The translations under genes and the position numbers were made by a program. Below are positions 18,618 through 38,000 of a stretch of 60,487 nt of DNA, piece after piece. The notes under the pieces are model-generated. The model was given only the letters and a program-made list of their open reading frames with translations, searched no databases and was not told the origin of the DNA. Where the stretch lies: the IMG/VR virus record IMGVR_UViG_3300018481_000002, positions 87,199 to 147,685 of that record. One strand, 5' to 3'. The first letter of the stretch is position 1. Every line of letters starts with the position of its first letter. The DNA comes from a virus. Lineage: Duplodnaviria; Heunggongvirae; Uroviricota; Caudoviricetes.

Positions 18618-19544
18618 ATGAGTACTGATGTGAAGAAGATGGTTGACTCCTTCGGACGGACCAAGGAGGAGAACAAGGACCGCCTCGCGATCATGGAGGC
18701 GGCCAACGAGGAGGCTCGGGAGCACTGGGATGACCCCCAGTACCGCGCCGAGTTCGCTGCGGACCTGACGGAGTCGATCCTTGAGGGGTTCGACTACGAG
18801 ACGCTTGTCGATCAGTGGATCGAGACTGAGCGCACCGACTTCAACGGACGAATCTTCATCCGTGAGGCTGGCGGTCTCAAGGCGTTCTTCATGGCCCGTG
18901 GTGGCTACATCGAGGCGTCCGAGCTGACTGCTGAGCTGTCCGAGGTTCCTCGCGACATGCTCGGTGTTCACGTGTGGGAGTTCGAGGACAAGTTCCTCAC
19001 GAACTTCGCCGAGTCTGCTCAGACTCTTCGTGATCTCTCGATTCGCCGGATGGACGCGGAAGTTAACCGCCGCATCCACACGGTCTTGAAGGAGGCCCTC
19101 GCGGCTTCCTACACGACCACGGCTGCTGGTATCTCGCAGGCTGCGGTTGACGCCGCCATCGCGCGCGTCCAGGACGAGTCGGAGTCTGGCGAGGTGGTCA
19201 TCGTTGGCCGCCCGACCGTTGTGAACAAGCTGGCTGGCTTCACTGGTTTCGGCAACGAGACTCTTGAGGAGATCCGGCGCAAGGGCATGTTCGGCGTCTA
19301 CCACGGCGCTTCGATCATCACCCTGAAGAACTTCAAGGACGAGGATGGAGTCGCTTACATCCCGAACAACGAGCTGTGGATCATGGCTCGCGACACGGGC
19401 AAGTTCGCGTTCTTCGGCGGCCTGAAGAGCAAGGAATTCATGGAGCTTGACAACTGGTACTGGCACTACCTCGCGCGGCGGGACACCGGCATCATGGTGC
19501 ACCACCCCGAGCGTGCCCACCTGCTGATCGACTCCAGCATCTGA
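18618..19544 (+). CDS. Major capsid protein
   Basis: 308 aa, strong codon bias, GAGGAGG RBS, followed by a strong terminator. Confidence 0.85.
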   Translation: MSTDVKKMVDSFGRTKEENKDRLAIMEAANEEAREHWDDPQYRAEFAADLTESILEGFDYETLVDQWIETERTDFNGRIFIREAGGLKAFFMARGGYIEASELTAELSEVPRDMLGVHVWEFEDKFLTNFAESAQTLRDLSIRRMDAEVNRRIHTVLKEALAASYTTTAAGISQAAVDAAIARVQDESESGEVVIVGRPTVVNKLAGFTGFGNETLEEIRRKGMFGVYHGASIITLKNFKDEDGVAYIPNNELWIMARDTGKFAFFGGLKSKEFMELDNWYWHYLARRDTGIMVHHPERAHLLIDSSI

Positions 19545-19564
19545 GGCTAATCCCCTCGGCATGA

Positions 19565-19601
19565 GAAAGGCCCCCGGTCCTCACGGATCGGGGGCCTTTT
19601 C
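19565..19601. terminator. Bidirectional terminator (MCP operon and leftward GGY-NN array)
   Basis: GAAAGGCCCCCGG...CGGGGGCCTTTT. Confidence 0.85.
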
Positions 19602-19641
19602 CTTGCGCTACCGTTCGCACGCCTCTTGGGCTACCGAACGC

Positions 19642-19733
19642 ACACCTTGCCCTACCTAGCCAGGCCGAACCCGGCCCTGCCTAGCACTGCCTTGCCCAAC
19701 CTAGCCATTGCCTAGCCTGGACTTGCCGAGACC
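19642..19733 (-). ncRNA. GGY-NN pentamer array D (candidate guide RNA)
   Basis: Minus strand: ggtct(c) ggcaa gtcca ggcta ggcaa(t) ggcta ggttg ggcaa ggcag tgcta ggcag ggccg ggttc ggcct ggcta ggtag ggcaa ggtgt. Confidence 0.8.
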
Positions 19734-19736
19734 GAC

Positions 19737-19780
19737 AGAGTATCGAACACTTGAACGAAGGCCAAGTGTCGGGGTACTGT
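19737..19780. promoter_or_regulatory. Divergent overlapping promoters with an SOS-like box
   Basis: Plus: TTGAAC(19751)-18-TACTGT; minus: TTGGCC(19765)-17-TACTCT; box TCGAACACTTGAACGA at 19743-19758. Confidence 0.7.
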
Positions 19781-19785
19781 TCCTT

Positions 19786-19905
19786 CGCTTGGCGTAGCTA
19801 GGCGGGGCTTGGCAGGGCCTGGCACCGCATGGCTTGGCAGAACAAGGCTCGGCCTGGAGGGGCTCGGCTAGGCCCGGCAGGGTGGGGCAAGGCTAGGCAG
19901 GGTAT
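19786..19905 (+). ncRNA. GGY-NN pentamer array A (candidate guide RNA)
   Basis: 24 units in perfect 5-nt register; 19/24 start with GGY and 23/24 have a pyrimidine at position 3. Confidence 0.85.
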
Positions 19906-19919
19906 AACTAGATCAGCGA

Positions 19920-19996
<77 letters not shown>

Positions 19997-20002
19997 AGAC
20001 GA

Positions 20003-20047
20003 GGCGAGGCCGGGCAGGGCCTGGCACCGTGGGGCACGGCAAGGCAG
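20003..20047 (+). ncRNA. GGY-NN pentamer array B (candidate guide RNA)
   Basis: ggcga ggccg ggcag ggcct ggcac cgtgg ggcac ggcaa ggcag, starting 6 nt after the tRNA CCA. Confidence 0.75.
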
Positions 20048-20107
20048 GGGTTCCCCACCCGCCCTAACAGACGACGCTCCTATCTCGACTACCTAGTAGG
20101 AGGCGAC

Positions 20108-20314
20108 ATGAGGGGACTCTTCCCTGAGAAGGACCTGCCCAGAGCGTTGGGTGTGAAGGTCTTCGGTGAGCCCAAGGCGCAGGCTCAGATCAACAGCCCG
20201 GACAAGGCGGGTCCGACCATCGCCAGGGACAAGACGTGCTGGTGTGGCCGTCCGTATCCGCATGACTGGCTGGGCCAGGAGGACGGTGCCGCGCATCCGA
20301 GGTACCCGGACTGA
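20108..20314 (+). CDS. Small hypothetical protein (CWC...H motif)
   Basis: GGAGG RBS; 68 aa. Confidence 0.7.
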   Translation: MRGLFPEKDLPRALGVKVFGEPKAQAQINSPDKAGPTIARDKTCWCGRPYPHDWLGQEDGAAHPRYPD

Positions 20315-20320
20315 TTTCCC

Positions 20321-20358
20321 TCGAACACTTGCACGAGGTGGTTTGTAGCGTCTACAGT
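20321..20358 (+). promoter_or_regulatory. Promoter with an SOS-like box upstream of array C and the RAMP gene
   Basis: TCGAACACTTGCACGA overlapping TTGCAC-18-TACAGT. Confidence 0.7.
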
Positions 20359-20369
20359 GCACACACCAT

Positions 20370-20431
20370 GGCATGGCAGAGGCTCGGCTAAGCGCGGCAC
20401 TGCACGGCCAGGCAGAGGCACGGCAAGGCAA
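20370..20431 (+). ncRNA. GGY-NN pentamer array C (in the 5' leader of the RAMP gene)
   Basis: ggcat ggcag(a) ggctc ggcta agcgc ggcac tgcac ggcca ggcag(a) ggcac ggcaa ggcaa. Confidence 0.8.
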
Positions 20432-20462
20432 CAACCACACATGAAGCCATTGGAGGCTCAAC

Positions 20463-21044
20463 TTGAAGGTAACCATCGAGATTGACGGCACCCAGCCGCT
20501 TCTCATGCACGCAGACACCCTCGCGGACCCGCTGGACCCGCTGACCAAGGAGTTCAAGCGACTCTCCGGGAAGCGGTCCAAGACCGACGAGGACCACGAG
20601 GCCATGGCGGAGAAGGAGTTCCTCGCCAGCCTCTACCTCGATGACGGCGGCGAGATCTGCATCCCCGCAGCCAACATCAAGAAGTGCCTCATCGAGGGAG
20701 GCCGCATCACCAAGTCCGGGGCCAAGATCGAACGTGGCCTCACGCTCCTGGGCATCGACTTCGTCCTGAAGCACACCGGTCCGGCACTCCCGGCTGACCT
20801 GTACCAGGACCCGAAGTTCGTGGACAGGCGTTCCGTGAAGGTCGGCACCGCCCGCACCATGCGTGTCCGTCCCCGCTTCAACGACTGGTCCCTGCGAGTG
20901 GAGTGCGACATCGACCCCGCCGTGTGTTCCATCGATGACCTGAAGGACATCGCGACCAACGCCGGTTCCCTGGTGGGTCTCGGTGACCACCGCAAGATCG
21001 GCGGATACGGACGTTTCGTGGCGAAGGTGAGGAAGAACCCGTGA
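20463..21044 (+). CDS. Stand-alone RAMP / Cas7-like RNA-binding protein
   Basis: Beta1 VTIEIDGTQPLLMH, IPAANIKKCL helix and Gly-rich loop GLGDHRKIGGYGRF; GGAGG RBS, TTG start. Confidence 0.85.
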   Translation: MKVTIEIDGTQPLLMHADTLADPLDPLTKEFKRLSGKRSKTDEDHEAMAEKEFLASLYLDDGGEICIPAANIKKCLIEGGRITKSGAKIERGLTLLGIDFVLKHTGPALPADLYQDPKFVDRRSVKVGTARTMRVRPRFNDWSLRVECDIDPAVCSIDDLKDIATNAGSLVGLGDHRKIGGYGRFVAKVRKNP

Positions 21045-21553
21045 GGCCGTTCGCGCCGAAGGGTGAGCAGCCTGAGTGGCGGATGCTCTACGACCTGGTT
21101 ACGGGTTCGGCTGTAGACACGGTGTTCCCGTACGACGACTTCGACCGGGCGCTTGGTCGGGACTTCCGGGAGAACCGGACCCCCCTGGCCCGTGTACAGA
21201 AGGAACTCCTGCGGGAGGACAAGCGGGTCCTGGTCAACGTACGCGGCGTCGGGTACCGGATCGCTCAGGCTCGGGAGCACGGCGAACTGGCTGTGGGTCA
21301 GCGGCAGCGTGCCCGTCGTGCCGTGGACAAGGGTGTTCAGATCGTTGCTGGCGCTGACCAGTCCTCTCTGACCCCGAAGGAACGGCAGCGGCTGACGGAG
21401 ATCGAGGTCAACCTGCGTGCTCAGGCGAACATGCTTCGCCGGACTGAGGCTCGGGTGGCCGTTTTGGAGAAGTCCGCGAAGCATTCGGACGACCGTCTGG
21501 ACATGCTGCTGGCTGAACTGAAGCGGAAGGGCTTGGTCGAGACGATCGACTAA
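21041..21553 (+). CDS. Winged-helix-like plus coiled-coil protein coupled to the RAMP gene
   Basis: GTGA overlap; wing motif NVRGVGYRI; C-terminal heptads. Confidence 0.75.
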   Translation: MRPFAPKGEQPEWRMLYDLVTGSAVDTVFPYDDFDRALGRDFRENRTPLARVQKELLREDKRVLVNVRGVGYRIAQAREHGELAVGQRQRARRAVDKGVQIVAGADQSSLTPKERQRLTEIEVNLRAQANMLRRTEARVAVLEKSAKHSDDRLDMLLAELKRKGLVETID

Positions 21554-29915: not shown

Positions 29916-30107
29916 GTGGCTGGCAACAACAAGGCGGCTAGCCGTCGCGCTAAGGATCAGGCGATGGCTGAACGTCTCCGCAAGCTCGGCGTGCGTCGCA
30001 CTTCTGGTGCGTGCCCCATGGGTTGCGGTGCCCAGGTTGGACTTGGTGGTCAGGGACTCTTGAACCACCTGCGTATGTGTGGAGGACCGAAGAAGCGCCG
30101 CGTCTGA
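29916..30107 (+). CDS. Small basic Zn-finger-like protein
   Basis: GGAGG RBS; CPMGC...LLNHLRMC; K/R-rich. Confidence 0.7.
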   Translation: MAGNNKAASRRAKDQAMAERLRKLGVRRTSGACPMGCGAQVGLGGQGLLNHLRMCGGPKKRRV

Positions 30108-30114
30108 ACGCGAG

Positions 30115-30146
30115 GAAAGGCCCCGGATCGAAACCCGGGGCCTTTC
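30115..30146. terminator. Bidirectional terminator
   Basis: GAAAGGCCCCGG...CCGGGGCCTTTC; also closes array E. Confidence 0.8.
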
Positions 30147-30148
30147 TC

Positions 30149-30235
30149 ATGCCTCGCTTCGCCTCTGCATCGCCAAGCCTTGCCTACGCCGTGGCACGCC
30201 TTGCCAAACCTTGCCGGGCCGGGCCACGCAATGTC
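30149..30235 (-). ncRNA. GGY-NN pentamer array E (orphan candidate guide RNA)
   Basis: gacat tgcgt ggccc ggccc ggcaa ggttt ggcaa ggcgt gccac ggcgt(a) ggcaa ggctt ggcga tgcag(a) ggcga agcga ggcat; fills the space exactly between a stop codon and a terminator. Confidence 0.8.
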
Positions 30236-30595
30236 TCATCGCACGTTGCTGTACAGGGAGGTCCCTGCGACAAACTGCCCCTTCCAGTTCCAGTTGTTCA
30301 TGACCCAGGACTGGAACTCGTGGTCATCCAGTTCGACGTGGTCCTCGACCTCCATCTCCAACCTGGCGATCACCAGGTCGTAGGAGTCGAGGTAGTGCTT
30401 CGGCTTCGGGAGTTCGCTGAGCGGCGTCAAGGTGATGACACCCTCCTTGGTGGCCAGGTCTGAGGCCTTCTTCAGAGCCTTGGTGGCCTCCTTCTTCCAG
30501 ACCTTCTTGGCCTTCTCGAACTCCTTCTTGTGCTCTTCGCGGTTCGTCTTCAGCTTCGTCAACAGGTCGTCTTTGCTGACCTTGGTTAGATCCAC
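30236..30595 (-). CDS. Conserved phage hypothetical protein
   Basis: LLTKLKTNREEHKKEF...YDLVIARLEM...ELDDHEFQSWVMNNWNWK; GAGGAGG RBS. Confidence 0.8.
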   Translation of the reverse strand: MDLTKVSKDDLLTKLKTNREEHKKEFEKAKKVWKKEATKALKKASDLATKEGVITLTPLSELPKPKHYLDSYDLVIARLEMEVEDHVELDDHEFQSWVMNNWNWKGQFVAGTSLYSNVR

Positions 30596-35000: not shown

Positions 35001-38000
35001 AGAGTCCATCTCCGCCTTGGAGGCTCGCGACCGAGCCTTGCAGGACGAGGCAAACGCTGTCCGGTACACCAAGCTGCCTTCTGGTGTGATGCCCGGAACT
35101 GAAGGGCAACCCATCAGTCGGCTCCGTGGGCGTAACGCCGCAGCGGACGTTCTGGGTTACGAGCTTGGTACTACAGGCGCTCAAGATGCTGCCAAGAGCC
35201 AACGACAGTTCCGTGCCGAGGCAGCGAAGGTCGAACAGGAACTGCACAAGCTTCAGCGTGAACTCGCTACGTTCAACGCCCAGTTCGACGCCAAGCCTGA
35301 CAACGTCAAGATCGACCGAAAGGCTGGCCTGTACCCCGGGCTGGTGGGTGACCTGGAAGGTGAGGCCAAGGACGCCGCTGAGGCGGTTGACCTTCTCACC
35401 AAGGAACTGCCGGGTCTGGAGAAGGCGACCGTCAACGCCCGGAACGCTGTCGCCCGCGCCGAGAAGGCCAAGTACGCCACCCCAGAGGCACGGTTCGACT
35501 ACAGGACCCAGTTGTACGCGGAGCGCGACAAGCTTCGGAAGGACCAGCCGTACACGAAGGCTGACATCTCTAAGTACCAGTCTGAGTTCGACGCTCTCGG
35601 GTTCAGCAACCAGCAGCGTGGGGCCCTGAGGGGTCAGATCACGAAGGCTGAGAAGAAGGGCGACACTGAGAGGGCCACTGCTCTGCGTGAGCAGTTGCGG
35701 ATCAGGGAGTCTGAGGTCGCTGCTGCCAGGGCGATCCTGGATCAGGCCATCAAGACCCGTGCCCGTCTTGGGCAGATCGACGCCGAGATCAAGAAGACCC
35801 TCTCCATGGATGAGGGCACGTACAAGGGCGACGAGAAGGTCGAGACTCGCACCTCCAACCGTCAGGTGGAGGATACAAACAAGCGTCTGATTGCTGCGAA
35901 GAAGAGGGAGATCGCTGCTGCGGAGGAGAACCGCAAGGCGCTCCTCCAGATCCGTGCAGACGAGAAGGCTCTCCCGAAGGGCGAGAAGCTTGCCCCTGAG
36001 GTGTCGGCTGACCGGAAGGCACGCCAGCAGCAGCCTTGGACCAAGGAGCAGCTCCGGACGATGCGTCGAGAGTTGCGTGACTTGGAGCGCGGCGGTGACG
36101 GCAGCGGGTTCGGGGGCGGTCCTGGTGGCACCGGTACGGCTGGTCGTGGCCCTGGTGGCAGCGACGGGTCGTTCAACATCCTGCGTCAGATCTTGAACCG
36201 GTTGAACGGGATCCACGCCACTCTCCGCAGTGGGTTGGGTAGCGGCACTACCAGGTCGAACGAGCCGACTAGCGCGTTCACTGGTGCTGGTGTCCGCAAG
36301 ACCGCTTCCCCTGAGGAGTTGGCGGCGGCGAAGAGCGACGACGAGGCGACGCGGTTGCGTGCTATCGCTGAGCAGCGTGCCCGTGCGCAGCGGTTTGGTG
36401 GTGCCTCTTCTGCTGAGGTCAAGGCAGCCAACGATGAGCACGCGAAGCGGATCAAGATCACCCGCGACCAGTACCGCGAGAGTCTCCGTCTGGCGCAGGC
36501 GATGGCGACTGTGTCCAAGGAGACCCGCAAGGAAGCTGAGGAACTGCACCGTCTGAACTTGGCTGGTGCAGACAACGCGACCATCGCGGCCCAGCAGGTG
36601 AGGGTCTACAACTCGGTCCAGCGGGATCTTCAGCCTCAGGATCTGCCGTTGACTGCCCGACGTGGCGTGGCGGGCACCATCATCAAGGGTGCCCAGCCTC
36701 GGGTCACTGACAACGAGATCGTTGACATCGAGAAGGCCGCCCAGTCCATGACTGGGTTCCGTGACGTGGGTGCCTCTGCTGCGGAGAACTTCCAGGACGG
36801 GTTCGCCCAGATCTTCCCCGGCAAGTCGTTCTGGTCTCGTGTCATCAACACGACGGGTACGTTCATCGTCCGTAACTTCGCTGCCGGTCTGGTCTTCGGT
36901 CTGACCAACGCGCTTCAGCAGGTGTTGGACCAGGCCATTCAGACTGAGGCGACATTCATCCGGGTGTCAGCGGCGTTGGAGTCCACCAACACTGAAGTTG
37001 GGGGCTTGCGTGGCGAGCTTCAGGCCATCTCCACTGACTACGGTGTCGCCCTCAACGACGTGTACACCACCGCTGCTGGGTTGGCTGGTCTCTTCACCGA
37101 CACTACCGAGCTGGCGGGAGCCACCCGTGTTGTCGCCCAGTTGCAGACCATTTCCGGTGGAGCCCTCAACGCTACGGAAGCTATGGGTGTCTTGGCGTCG
37201 ACACTCTCCGCGTTCCAAGCGCTCCCGGGTGATGACGTTGGAGCCAACCTTCTCCCTCAGGGCATTGAGGGCATGGAACGCGTCGCTGACGTTCTGACGG
37301 TCATCCAGAACCGGTTGGGTACCAACATTGAGGTCACCGCCGAGGGCGTCTCGCGTATGTCTGGTTTGGCCCGGCAGATGAACCTCTCCCTTGAGGAGAC
37401 CGCAGTCTTCACTGCTCAAATTTCGAAGCAGACCAACCAGACCGGTGCGGCAGCTGGTGAGCAGTTCTCTCGTATCCTCGGCGCGCTGTCCACGGGTCGT
37501 GGTCGCGGTGCAGTTGTCGAGGCGATCGGGCCCCAGGCTGAGGAGGCTCTGGCCGCTTCCGACTATGGACAGGTGTTTAGACTCATCATCTCCGGATGGG
37601 ATGACCTGTCCGACGCTCAGAAGCGCAACCTGACGGTGTCTCTTGCCGGGCAGCGACAGGCGGCCGCCTTCAACGCTTTGGTCAACAACGAAACTGCGGT
37701 CCTCAACACGTTGACCCACGCAGAGAACGCTAGTGGTGAAGCCACCGACCGTATGGCCAAGTTGATGGCCACCCTGAACAAGCAGATCGACGTCCTGGGC
37801 ACTAACCTCCAAAACCTGGCATCGAACCTGATCCGGTCTGGTCTGCTGAACTTCCTGGGCATTGTTCTGAAGCTCGCCAACGCGGTCTTCGGCACCATCA
37901 ACAACGGTCTGACTGCGATGAACGACTTCGCAGACAACAACGCCTTCGTCGGGTTCCTGCGCGACACCATCACCACGATGCTCGGATTCGCGGTGGCAGC

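What the first reader, a model, noticed from the sequence alone, without database searches (positions are those of the whole stretch)
19786..19905. Decoded NN strings are non-repetitive and AT-rich, as expected for information-carrying guides
Seen NN series. A: tt gt ta gg tt ag ct ac at tt ag aa tc ct gg tc ta cc ag gg aa ta ag at (30/48 A+T). D (17 units): aa ca ta aa ta tg aa ag ta ag cg tc ct ta ag aa gt (24/34). E: at gt cc cc aa tt aa gt ac gt aa tt ga ag ga ga at (22/34). C: at ag tc ta gc ac ac ca ag ac aa aa. The surrounding genome is GC-rich, and slippage would homogenise a simple microsatellite, yet NN stays diverse while GGY stays fixed. Inference: the targets are AT-rich sites such as promoters or foreign phage DNA. 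With a 1-nt skip the code would be blind to codon wobble positions. A, C, D and E also contain occasional non-GG units, and C, D and E contain 6-nt units that could mark register shifts or guide boundaries.
Basis: partly seen in the sequence, partly recalled or inferred. Interest (0 to 1): 0.85.

Follow-up and report, generated by a model that had tools for sequence, protein, structure and literature searches.

The report
Phage VIPR guide-RNA arrays, target unknown
The five-base repeat is a guide-RNA gene of a phage VIPR system, a CRISPR-like RNA-guided DNA-silencing machine first described in 2026, so its varied two-letter slots probably carry targeting information, but their mild A+T bias is normal for such arrays and no target was found.

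Summary

It is one of ten such arrays in a 147.7-kb phage. They lie around a gene (window 20463-21044) whose product matches the solved SUSP1 Vipr protein over its full length (E 1e-37). Four of the five checked GGY-reading residues are kept. The arrays are therefore vrRNAs of a VIPR system, described in three 2026 bioRxiv preprints. This scan has met VIPR arrays before on other DNA. "Information-carrying guides" is supported by homology.

"AT-rich, hence AT-rich targets" is only weakly supported:
- NN is 58-60% A+T and close to uniform base use.
- 81 other viral loci average 50% A+T, and this phage sits about 1 SD above their trend.
- Family-wide the bias fits reading codon positions 1-2 and skipping the GC-rich wobble base. 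This phage's own NN use does not look codon-like.

One-base-skip searches of its own genome, IMG/VR, metagenomes and 185,579 genomes gave no target above chance.

A relative's vrRNA does match 22/22 NN positions in the capsid gene of two other phages.

New member of a known kind.

The parts
19784..19903 (+). vrRNA array A (the finding): 24 NNGGY units, all 5 nt, 5 with a degenerate triplet. It ends in aaGGC-taGGC-agGGT.
19633..19735 (-). vrRNA array D, read on the minus strand: 17-21 units, two of them 6-nt units. It runs into the bidirectional terminator.
19568..19600 (.). GC-rich hairpin terminator. It closes the capsid gene on the + strand and probably the array D transcript on the - strand.
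   Evidence: + strand called by the scan; the - strand reading is inferred from the sequence
19737..19780 (.). Back-to-back promoter-like hexamers. TTGAAC(19751-19756)-18-TACTGT(19775-19780) fires into A. On the minus strand TTGGCC(19760-19765)-17-TACTCT(19737-19742) fires into D. Both are inferred and fall below the E. coli consensus threshold.
   Evidence: read. The strict scan finds none. The motif TCGAACACTTG[A/C]ACGA[A/G]G recurs before array C and in relative L134.
19920..19996 (+). tRNA-Met(CAT) lying between arrays A and B. It may act as a processing punctuation through RNase P and RNase Z (inferred).
19996..20050 (+). vrRNA array B: 11 units. It shares the segment GGCAGGGCCTGGCACCG with array A.
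20108..20314 (+). Small ORF (68 aa, Cys/His-containing) between arrays B and C. Function unknown.
20329..20358 (+). Promoter-like TTGCAC-18-TACAGT ahead of array C. It is conserved in relative L134, whose Vipr is 86% identical.
20368..20429 (+). vrRNA array C: 12 units, directly upstream of vipr. About half of its NN units are shared with the orthologous array in L134.
20463..21044 (+). vipr gene (193 aa, TTG start, GGAGG ribosome-binding site). It encodes a RAMP/Cas7-like protein.
   Evidence: - phmmer against PDB chain 36pp_D (SUSP1 Vipr): E 1e-37 over residues 4-189.
- Profile A1: E 1.6e-63.
- AlphaFold2 model: pLDDT 96.8.
- Foldseek top hits are Csm3/Cas7.
- It is the only copy in the genome.
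21041..21553 (+). Candidate vap accessory gene (170 aa). Its start overlaps the vipr stop. The model shows a winged-helix-like N-terminal domain followed by long helices.
   Evidence: - It follows vipr in four relatives at 32-61% identity.
- AlphaFold2 model: pLDDT 83.7.
- The weak Foldseek hits are all winged-helix DNA binders.
- No Pfam match.
30151..30237 (-). vrRNA array E (17 units), on the minus strand between the stop of a minus-strand ORF and a hairpin terminator at about 30103-30140.

Best explanation
**What it is.** The tract is a vrRNA gene of a phage-borne VIPR (Viral Interference Programmable Repeat) system of the SUSP1-like (type II-like) kind.

**Shown here.**
- A 147.7-kb phage with direct terminal repeats carries a single vipr gene (window 20463-21044).
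- A conserved winged-helix-like gene follows it as the candidate vap.
- The genome holds ten NNGGY arrays. Four lie just upstream of vipr (D, A, B, C). One lies 9 kb downstream (E). Five lie 29-30 kb upstream, outside the window.

**Inferred from the published SUSP1 and P. fulva work.**
- The arrays are transcribed. A and D would come from back-to-back promoter-like sites and C from its own.
- One Vipr protomer binds per pentamer. It locks G1, G2 and Y3 and presents the two N bases.
- The filament pairs those NN with double-stranded DNA that carries the same dinucleotides separated by one skipped base. It forms an R-loop triplex that blocks transcription of a competing mobile element.

**The NN strings.**
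- NN varies because it is the address, and GGY is fixed because it is the protein handle.
- The last two or three units (consensus AAGGC-RRGG) are probably handle, not guide.
- The A+T level of NN (58-60%) is what such arrays usually show in GC-rich phages. On its own it does not identify the targets, which remain unknown.
For: **Vipr homology.**
- P0001 matches SUSP1 Vipr (PDB 36pp) at E 1e-37 over the full length, and the profile at E 1.6e-63.
- Of the five checked residues that read GGY in the cryo-EM structure, four are kept: H17, R138, D177 and R179 correspond to H16, R136, D175 and R177. All four are invariant or nearly so in 19-45 homologues. The fifth, W178, is His here.
- The model has pLDDT 96.8 and a Csm3/Cas7 fold.

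**Repeat anatomy.**
- It fits published vrRNAs: GGY conserved, NN at high entropy, internal degeneracy (paper).
- There is no self-target at one-base skip, as published.

**Accessory gene.** The syntenic winged-helix-like gene fits vap.

**The code works in this Vipr clade.**
- A vrRNA of relative L131 pairs 22/22 NN with the major head gene of two other viral contigs.
- The skipped bases fall on wobble positions.
- The two targets differ only at skipped bases.

**Family-wide NN composition.** It tracks codon positions 1-2.
Against: - No target was found for any of this phage's ten guides.
- No RNA data exist to show that the arrays are transcribed or processed.
- There is no SUSP1-like 40-nt pseudoknot tail after the arrays. 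I found only a conserved terminal AAGGC-RRGG, and a short ACACAT motif in 3 of 10 arrays.
- 23% of units have a degenerate triplet.
- Several arrays are longer (17-31 units) than the published 9-16.
- Several arrays run straight into the ribosome-binding site of small ORFs, so some may have another or an additional role.
- W178 of SUSP1 Vipr is His here.
Confidence: 0.88

Rival explanations
1. The arrays are real vrRNAs, and the reader's specific inference also holds. This phage's guides are aimed at non-coding, A+T-rich DNA (promoters, operators or host repeat elements used as decoys) rather than at wobble-aligned coding sequence.
For: - Own NN use is not codon-like (r = 0.10, against a median of 0.83 if drawn from codon positions 1-2; chi-square p = 5e-11).
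- TA units are 6.8%, against 2.6% expected (p = 0.0015).
- Arrays A and D score -2 to -10 bits under coding models, and D would contain four Tyr/stop codons in 19.
- In-frame coding targets with 58% A+T at positions 1-2 would imply a genome of roughly 34% GC. This is my estimate from the standard relation between GC1/GC2 and genome GC.
- Non-coding REP decoy targets are published for satellite vrRNAs.
Against: - No such target was found.
- The A+T level is within the normal spread of arrays in phages of similar GC (z about 1; 13-19% of loci are as high).
- Only 190 units are available.
- Among the genomic models, codon positions 1-2 still fit better than genome or intergenic dinucleotides (4.05 against 4.20-4.25 bits per unit).
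Confidence: 0.25
2. Some of the ten arrays, especially the degenerate ones without a tail motif, are not targeting guides. They would be decoy or sponge RNAs, or decaying copies. They still bind Vipr, or double as 5' leaders through which Vipr binding controls the small ORFs that follow.
For: - Arrays G1 and G5 (outside the window) end in gaGGA/gaGGG, which is also the Shine-Dalgarno sequence of the next ORF. G2, G4 and B also precede small ORFs.
- 23% of units are degenerate.
- No targets were found.
- Redirecting Vipr with solo vrRNAs is published.
Against: - High NN entropy with no repeats is not expected of decaying duplicates.
- Array C is kept in a relative together with its promoter.
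- A relative's arrays of the same style have a bona fide target.
Confidence: 0.15
3. NN are mere spacers in a binding array for a multimeric RNA-binding protein of the TRAP or CsrA type. That protein would read the triplet at 5-nt spacing to control translation or termination. This was my reading before I met the VIPR literature.
For: - The period-5 triplet with a 2-3 nt spacer is the geometry of TRAP sites (my own knowledge).
- The arrays sit in 5' leaders.
Against: - The adjacent protein is a RAMP homologous to Vipr, for which NN-dependent DNA targeting has been shown by reprogramming and cryo-EM.
- The triplet is GGY, not GAG/UAG or GGA.
- A relative's NN string matches a capsid gene 22/22, which spacers would not do.
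Confidence: 0.03
4. It is a DNA-level feature: a slippage microsatellite, iterons or a packaging site, or G-quadruplex-forming DNA.
For: - GG every 5 nt could form two-tetrad quadruplexes.
- The arrays lie next to the capsid gene.
Against: - NN entropy is about 3.9 of 4 bits, with C/T fixed after GG.
- Orientation always follows the promoter-like site or the local transcription direction.
- Ten dispersed arrays fit a packaging site poorly.
- The same arrays in more than 120 viral contigs co-occur with Vipr-type genes where I checked.
Confidence: 0.02

Closest known systems
Type II VIPR systems of Escherichia phage SUSP1 and a Pseudomonas fulva prophage (Vipr + vrRNA + Vap1). Sources: bioRxiv 10.64898/2026.04.26.720920, 10.64898/2026.04.26.720927 and 10.64898/2026.10.15.759431.
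   Same: - The Vipr protein is of the same length, about 40% identical over its whole length, and keeps four of the five checked GGY-contact residues.
- The vrRNAs are NNGGY pentamers in the intergenic DNA flanking vipr, one of them directly upstream.
- A small DNA-binding-like accessory gene lies right after vipr.
- The system is phage-borne.
- There is no self-targeting.
- Some vrRNAs lie far from vipr, comparable to 'solo' vrRNAs.
   Different: - Arrays have 11-31 units, against 9-16.
- No 40-nt pseudoknot tail is recognisable.
- vrRNAs are scattered over three regions of a 148-kb genome, mostly with their own promoter-like sites, and alternate with small Cys-rich ORFs.
- A tRNA-Met sits between two arrays.
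- The candidate vap has no detectable sequence match to anything solved.
- W178 is replaced by His.
- Targets are unknown.
Class 1 CRISPR effector backbones (Cas7/Csm3 filaments on crRNA)
   Same: - The RAMP fold: Foldseek top hits are Csm3 and type VII Cas7, E about 2e-6 and TM about 0.5.
- One protomer binds per fixed step of the guide, with periodic flipped bases.
   Different: - There are no CRISPR repeats or spacers and no cas1/cas2.
- The guide is interrupted every 2 nt by a 3-nt protein-bound motif.
- The target is read with one base skipped in three.
TRAP (trp RNA-binding attenuation protein) binding sites in Bacillus leaders
   Same: Triplets are repeated at 5-6 nt spacing in an RNA leader, with one protein subunit per triplet (my own knowledge).
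   Different: - The triplet is GGY, not GAG/UAG.
- The protein partner is a RAMP, not TRAP.
- In VIPR the spacers carry the specificity.

Membership tests
VIPR system | A Vipr protein (minimal RAMP with an RRM core, G-loop and thumb) encoded next to the repeats | tested here: met
   - The window 20463-21044 product matches SUSP1 Vipr (36pp_D) at E 1e-37 over residues 4-189. The profile gives E 1.6e-63.
- The AlphaFold2 model has pLDDT 96.8, and its best PDB folds are Csm3/Cas7.
VIPR system | Residues that read G1, G2 and Y3 of the repeat are conserved (SUSP1 H17, R138, D177, W178, R179) | tested here: met
   H16, R136, D175 and R177 are aligned and are invariant or nearly so in the homologues. 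W178 is His176 here.
VIPR system | Tandem pentamers with conserved GGY and hypervariable NN, at least 4 units, in intergenic DNA around vipr | tested here: met
   - There are ten arrays of 11-31 units.
- G2 is conserved in 94% of units and Y3 in 96%.
- NN entropy is 3.83-3.91 of 4 bits.
VIPR system | A vap accessory gene in an operon with vipr (a predicted DNA binder in types II, VI and VII) | tested here: inconclusive
   - A 170-aa gene overlaps the vipr stop.
- It is syntenic in four relatives.
- The model shows a winged-helix topology plus long helices. The Foldseek hits are weak (E 0.04-0.2) but are all winged-helix DNA binders.
- No Vap1 sequence was available for comparison.
VIPR system | A conserved structured 3' tail after each repeat tract (a pseudoknot in the SUSP1 clade) | tested here: not met
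   - No shared 40-nt tail was found.
- Only the terminal AAGGC-RRGG (8 of 10 arrays) and ACACAT (3 of 10) are shared.
- Relatives L130 and L131 have 15-20-nt separators of the form ..ACACA..CTTCC.
- The tail is said to be clade-specific in the paper, so this does not exclude membership.
VIPR system | NN strings match natural DNA targets under the one-base-skip rule, above a shuffled background | tested here: inconclusive
   - For this phage's guides, matches in its own genome equal the shuffled null.
- Held loci gave none.
- Six IMG/VR seed scans gave two hits. One did not extend at all. The other extended by only one further unit, to 21/22.
- The 185,579-genome scan gave none.
- The metagenome hits are at chance level.
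- For relative L131 the test is met, with 22/22 in a capsid gene.
VIPR system | vrRNAs are expressed as roughly 100-nt RNAs and co-purify with Vipr | not testable with these tools
   It needs small-RNA sequencing and a Vipr pull-down.
CRISPR array | Direct repeats of 23-50 bp separated by unique spacers of similar length, with cas1/cas2 nearby | tested here: not met
   Only a 5-nt periodicity is present. The locus holds just vipr and one accessory gene.
TRAP-type RNA-binding array | GAG/UAG triplets with 2-3-nt spacers, bound by a TRAP ring protein | tested here: not met
   The triplet is GGC/GGT in 77% of units. The neighbouring protein is a RAMP. I did not search the genome for a TRAP-family gene.

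The most novel reading that the evidence does not exclude
This phage's VIPR is a variant in two respects.
- Its guides address non-coding or unusually A+T-rich DNA (promoters, operators or repeat decoys) rather than wobble-aligned genes.
- Its vrRNAs are made as separate promoter-driven units, punctuated by a tRNA and by small Cys-rich ORFs, without the pseudoknot tail. The tRNA-processing enzymes would then define the vrRNA ends.
Probability: 0.2. Interest if true: 0.55.

Novelty: new member of a known kind. Interest (0 to 1): 0.3.

Why it matters
**Why VIPR matters.** VIPR is months old as a concept and has been characterised only in two proteobacterial systems.

**What this locus adds.**
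- It shows the same machinery in a large GC-rich phage with a different layout: ten scattered arrays, long guides, a tRNA between guides and no obvious tail.
- A relative from the same Vipr clade gives an independent, purely computational confirmation of the one-base-skip, wobble-blind code, through its match to a rival capsid gene.

**A rule of thumb for later readers.**
- NN slots of VIPR arrays sit near 50% A+T whatever the genome's GC content.
- 'AT-rich NN in a GC-rich genome' is therefore a signature of the family, not evidence about the targets.

**An annotation point.** Such arrays can be mis-annotated as protein-coding genes. An example is gene 48 of Mycobacterium phage Donkeykong.

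Tried and rejected
**1. First reading.** I first read the arrays as a TRAP-like RNA-binding array with NN as spacers. I dropped this after the earlier-findings lead to VIPR, which I then checked against the papers and the PDB.

**2. Rfam, window 19400-20600, E up to 10.** Only the tRNA and terminator-like noise were found.

**3. Self-targets.** I scanned all ten guides at skips of 0, 1 and 2. The best scores equal the shuffled nulls. Skip-3 'hits' are the arrays themselves.

**4. Windows of 12 units against 1.2 Mb of held viral loci.** The result equals the null.

**5. Exact one-base-skip seeds of 9 units in IMG/VR.**
- Seeds from G1, A (two), D, B and E gave 0, 0, 0, 0, 1 and 1 hits.
- The G1 hit does not extend (30/62; a 35% GC contig).
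- The E hit extends to 21/22. It lies in a Gly-rich repeat protein of a provirus, and no other guide converges on that provirus.
- I treat this as marginal, at roughly p = 0.1.

**6. Larger collections.**
- An 11-unit seed of A against 185,579 genomes gave no hit.
- A 10-unit seed of G2 against metagenomes gave no hit.
- A 9-unit seed of B against metagenomes gave 34 hits in about 12 independent groups. These include the conserved LTGTK motif of [2Fe-2S] subunits and an out-of-frame site in a PEP-utilising enzyme gene.
- None extends to the flanking units, and the number is about what chance predicts.

**7. Protein-level scan.** I scanned 117 held proteins, mostly Vipr homologues, for codon-compatible matches, to test whether guides aim at rivals' vipr genes. 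The result equals the null.

**8. Host identification.**
- A Vipr pattern search in genome contigs found nothing.
- No WhiB gene is present.
- The host stays unknown.

**9. Sequencing runs.** No RNA holder is listed. The DNA holders come from one coded study with no organism given.

**10. Limits.** Exact seeds miss targets with mismatches inside the seed. I could not pattern-scan the GenBank phage collection.

Full report
**What is in the sequence**

Window 19784-19903 consists of 24 consecutive 5-nt units of the form NNGGY. So are the A+T counts of 30/48, 24/34 and 22/34.

The window is the last 60 kb of a 147,685-bp IMG/VR phage record with direct terminal repeats and 61.6% GC. The genome holds ten such arrays:

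| Array | Strand | Position |
|---|---|---|
| D | - | window 19633-19735 |
| A | + | window 19784-19903 |
| B | + | window 19996-20050 |
| C | + | window 20368-20429 |
| E | - | window 30151-30237 |
| five more | + | genome 77152-78441, just before the window starts |

A five-unit GGCNN pattern with at most 1 mismatch occurs 43 times, against 0 for its reversed control. Over 190 units the triplet is G/G/Y in 86%/94%/96% of units. Eight units are 6 nt long.

**Context**

- All arrays are intergenic.
- Arrays A and D diverge from a 45-bp stretch that holds back-to-back promoter-like hexamers. Array C has its own promoter-like site. These sites fall below the E. coli consensus scan.
- They do share the motif TCGAACACTTG[A/C]ACGA[A/G]G, which is conserved in a relative.
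- Array D ends at the bidirectional terminator of the capsid gene.
- Array A is followed after 16 nt by tRNA-Met, and array B begins at the tRNA's 3' end.
- The arrays outside the window sit between promoter-like sites and the ribosome-binding sites of small Cys-rich ORFs.

**What it is**

My first reading was a TRAP-like protein-binding RNA. A look-up of earlier findings of this scan pointed to VIPR, and I checked that lead myself. Three 2026 bioRxiv preprints describe these systems:

- Vipr is a roughly 20-kDa minimal RAMP.
- It polymerises on vrRNAs made of alternating GGY/NN, with one protomer per repeat.
- The NN bases pair with double-stranded DNA that carries the same dinucleotides separated by one skipped base.
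- This silences rival phages, prophages or satellites.

The ORF directly after array C (window 20463-21044, 193 aa) fits Vipr on every test I could run:

- It matches the solved SUSP1 Vipr chain 36pp_D at E 1e-37 over its whole length. A profile of 45 homologues gives E 1.6e-63.
- The residues reported to read G1, G2 and Y3 (H17, R138, D177, R179) align with H16, R136, D175 and R177. These are invariant or nearly so in the family. W178 is His here.
- The AlphaFold2 model has pLDDT 96.8, and its best PDB folds are Csm3/Cas7.
- It is the only vipr in the genome.

The next gene, which overlaps the vipr stop, has these properties:

- It follows vipr in four relatives.
- It models as a winged helix plus long helices.
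- This fits a DNA-binding vap, though I could not compare it with Vap1.

The finding is therefore a vrRNA array of a VIPR system. This scan has already reported such arrays on other genomes.

**Are the NN strings 'as expected for guides'?**

Non-repetitive: yes.
- All 16 dinucleotides occur, and entropy is 3.83-3.91 of 4 bits.
- No run of four or more NN units recurs between arrays.

A+T-rich: only relative to the genome.
- NN is 60% A+T, or 57.8% without the last three units of each array. Those terminal units are dominated by a conserved AAGGC.
- The genome is 38.4% A+T and other intergenic DNA is 39.6%.
- The core NN use cannot be told from uniform (p = 0.16).

I then asked whether this is special. 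A pattern scan of IMG/VR returned more than 120 viral contigs with such arrays. In 81 of them (3,109 strict units):

- NN averages 50.5% A+T.
- NN A+T follows 0.81 - 0.50 x GC, so it exceeds the flanks by 8-21 points in GC-rich contigs.
- The first N is G>A>T>C, like codon position 1. The second N is flat, like position 2.
- NN use correlates with codon positions 1-2 in the sense direction (r = 0.63). It does not correlate with genome dinucleotides (r = -0.07) or with the other two frames.

The family-wide A+T excess is thus what the published wobble-skipping code predicts for coding targets. This phage lies only 1.0-1.3 residual SD above the trend.

Its own NN use, however, is not codon-like:
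- r = 0.10, with chi-square p = 5e-11 against its own codon positions 1-2.
- TA units are 6.8%, against 2.6% expected.
- Arrays A and D score below uniform under coding models.

**Target search**

- Own genome: the best matches at skips of 0-2 equal the shuffled nulls.
- Held loci: equal to the null.
- Exact 9-unit seeds in IMG/VR from G1, A (two), D, B and E gave two hits. One does not extend.
- The other is a 21/22 match of E in a Gly-rich repeat protein of a provirus. No other guide converges on that provirus. I rate it marginal.
- An 11-unit seed of A in 185,579 genomes gave no hit.
- Metagenome seeds gave either nothing or a chance-level set that does not extend.
- A codon-compatibility scan of Vipr homologues gave the null.

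These scans require a perfect seed and cannot reach GenBank phages. The negative result is therefore weak.

**A positive control from a relative**

In an all-against-all seed-and-extend scan, one vrRNA of contig L131 stood out. L131's Vipr is 55% identical to this phage's, and the contig carries a 3.2-kb tandem vrRNA array.

- The vrRNA pairs 11 consecutive units, 22/22 NN, with the major head protein gene (phrog_2522) of two other viral contigs.
- The skipped bases fall on codon wobble positions, and the two targets differ only at skipped bases.
- I estimate the chance expectation for the 2.1-Mb local database at about 6e-4.

This shows three things for this clade. The code holds. The last two units (AAGGC-ATGGG) are handle rather than guide.

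**Differences from the published type II systems**

- Arrays have 11-31 units, against 9-16.
- No 40-nt pseudoknot tail is present. Only the terminal AAGGC-RRGG and a short ACACAT motif recur.
- The arrays are scattered, promoter-driven units that alternate with small ORFs.
- A tRNA lies between two arrays.

**Verdict**

- 'Guides' is supported by homology to a system characterised in 2026.
- 'AT-rich targets' is not established.
- This is a new member of a known, very recent kind.

Noticed in passing
L131:9558-9625 (vrRNA); targets at about L009:747-782 and L082 (minus strand, about 1137 from the reverse-complement start): - A vrRNA of a relative, whose Vipr is 55% identical, matches 22/22 NN positions under the one-base-skip rule.
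- The target is the major head protein gene (phrog_2522) of two other viral contigs.
- The match is in frame with wobble positions, and the two targets differ only at skipped bases.
- The last two units of the vrRNA do not pair.
   Followed up: yes
L175 = NC_051648.1 34487-39598 (Mycobacterium phage Donkeykong): - RefSeq 'gene 48, hypothetical protein' (36870-37256) is really a roughly 350-bp NNGGC array.
- The C-terminal 190 aa of gene 49 is a Vipr homologue (profile E 1.4e-16, G-loop GVGDWRP).
- 138 Mycobacterium phage records matched the query. That query also contains a tRNA, so I do not know how many of them matched the array itself.
- The array lies in the immunity/early region, beside the repressor, antirepressor and excisionase genes.
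   Followed up: partly
window 19904-19996: tRNA-Met(CAT) lies 16 nt after array A, and array B starts at its 3' end. RNase P and RNase Z could therefore cut out the two vrRNAs. That would be a tRNA counterpart of the published hammerhead-punctuated arrays.
   Followed up: no
genome 77152-78441 (8.8-10 kb before the window start): - Five further arrays of 16-31 units alternate with small Cys-rich ORFs of the CxxC...CxxC type.
- In two of these arrays the last units (gaGGA, gaGGG) double as the Shine-Dalgarno sequence of the next ORF.
   Followed up: partly
window 30151-30237 (array E); G001:C1:47729-47754 (L170:3575-4969 ORF): Guide E matches 21/22 NN over 11 units in a provirus gene for a Hint-like, Gly-rich beta-helix protein. 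The match is wobble-aligned, but it lies in a low-complexity repeat and no other guide hits that provirus. I judge it marginal.
   Followed up: yes
window 19806-19826 and 20013-20033: Arrays A and B share the 17-nt segment GGCAGGGCCTGGCACCG, including the same degenerate unit. This suggests partial duplication between guides.
   Followed up: no
window 19744-19762, 20322-20340; L134 about 95-115: The motif TCGAACACTTG[A/C]ACGA[A/G]G recurs upstream of arrays A and C and in a relative. Before A it forms an imperfect palindrome (ACACTTG...CAAGTGT) spanning both -35-like boxes, so it may be an operator.
   Followed up: no
L131:6450-9629: A 3.2-kb uninterrupted run of about 35 tandem vrRNAs of 12-30 units each, separated by 15-nt blocks of the form GGACCCAnnnGCTTTC. 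It lies on a 101-kb contig that also carries a WhiB gene.
   Followed up: partly
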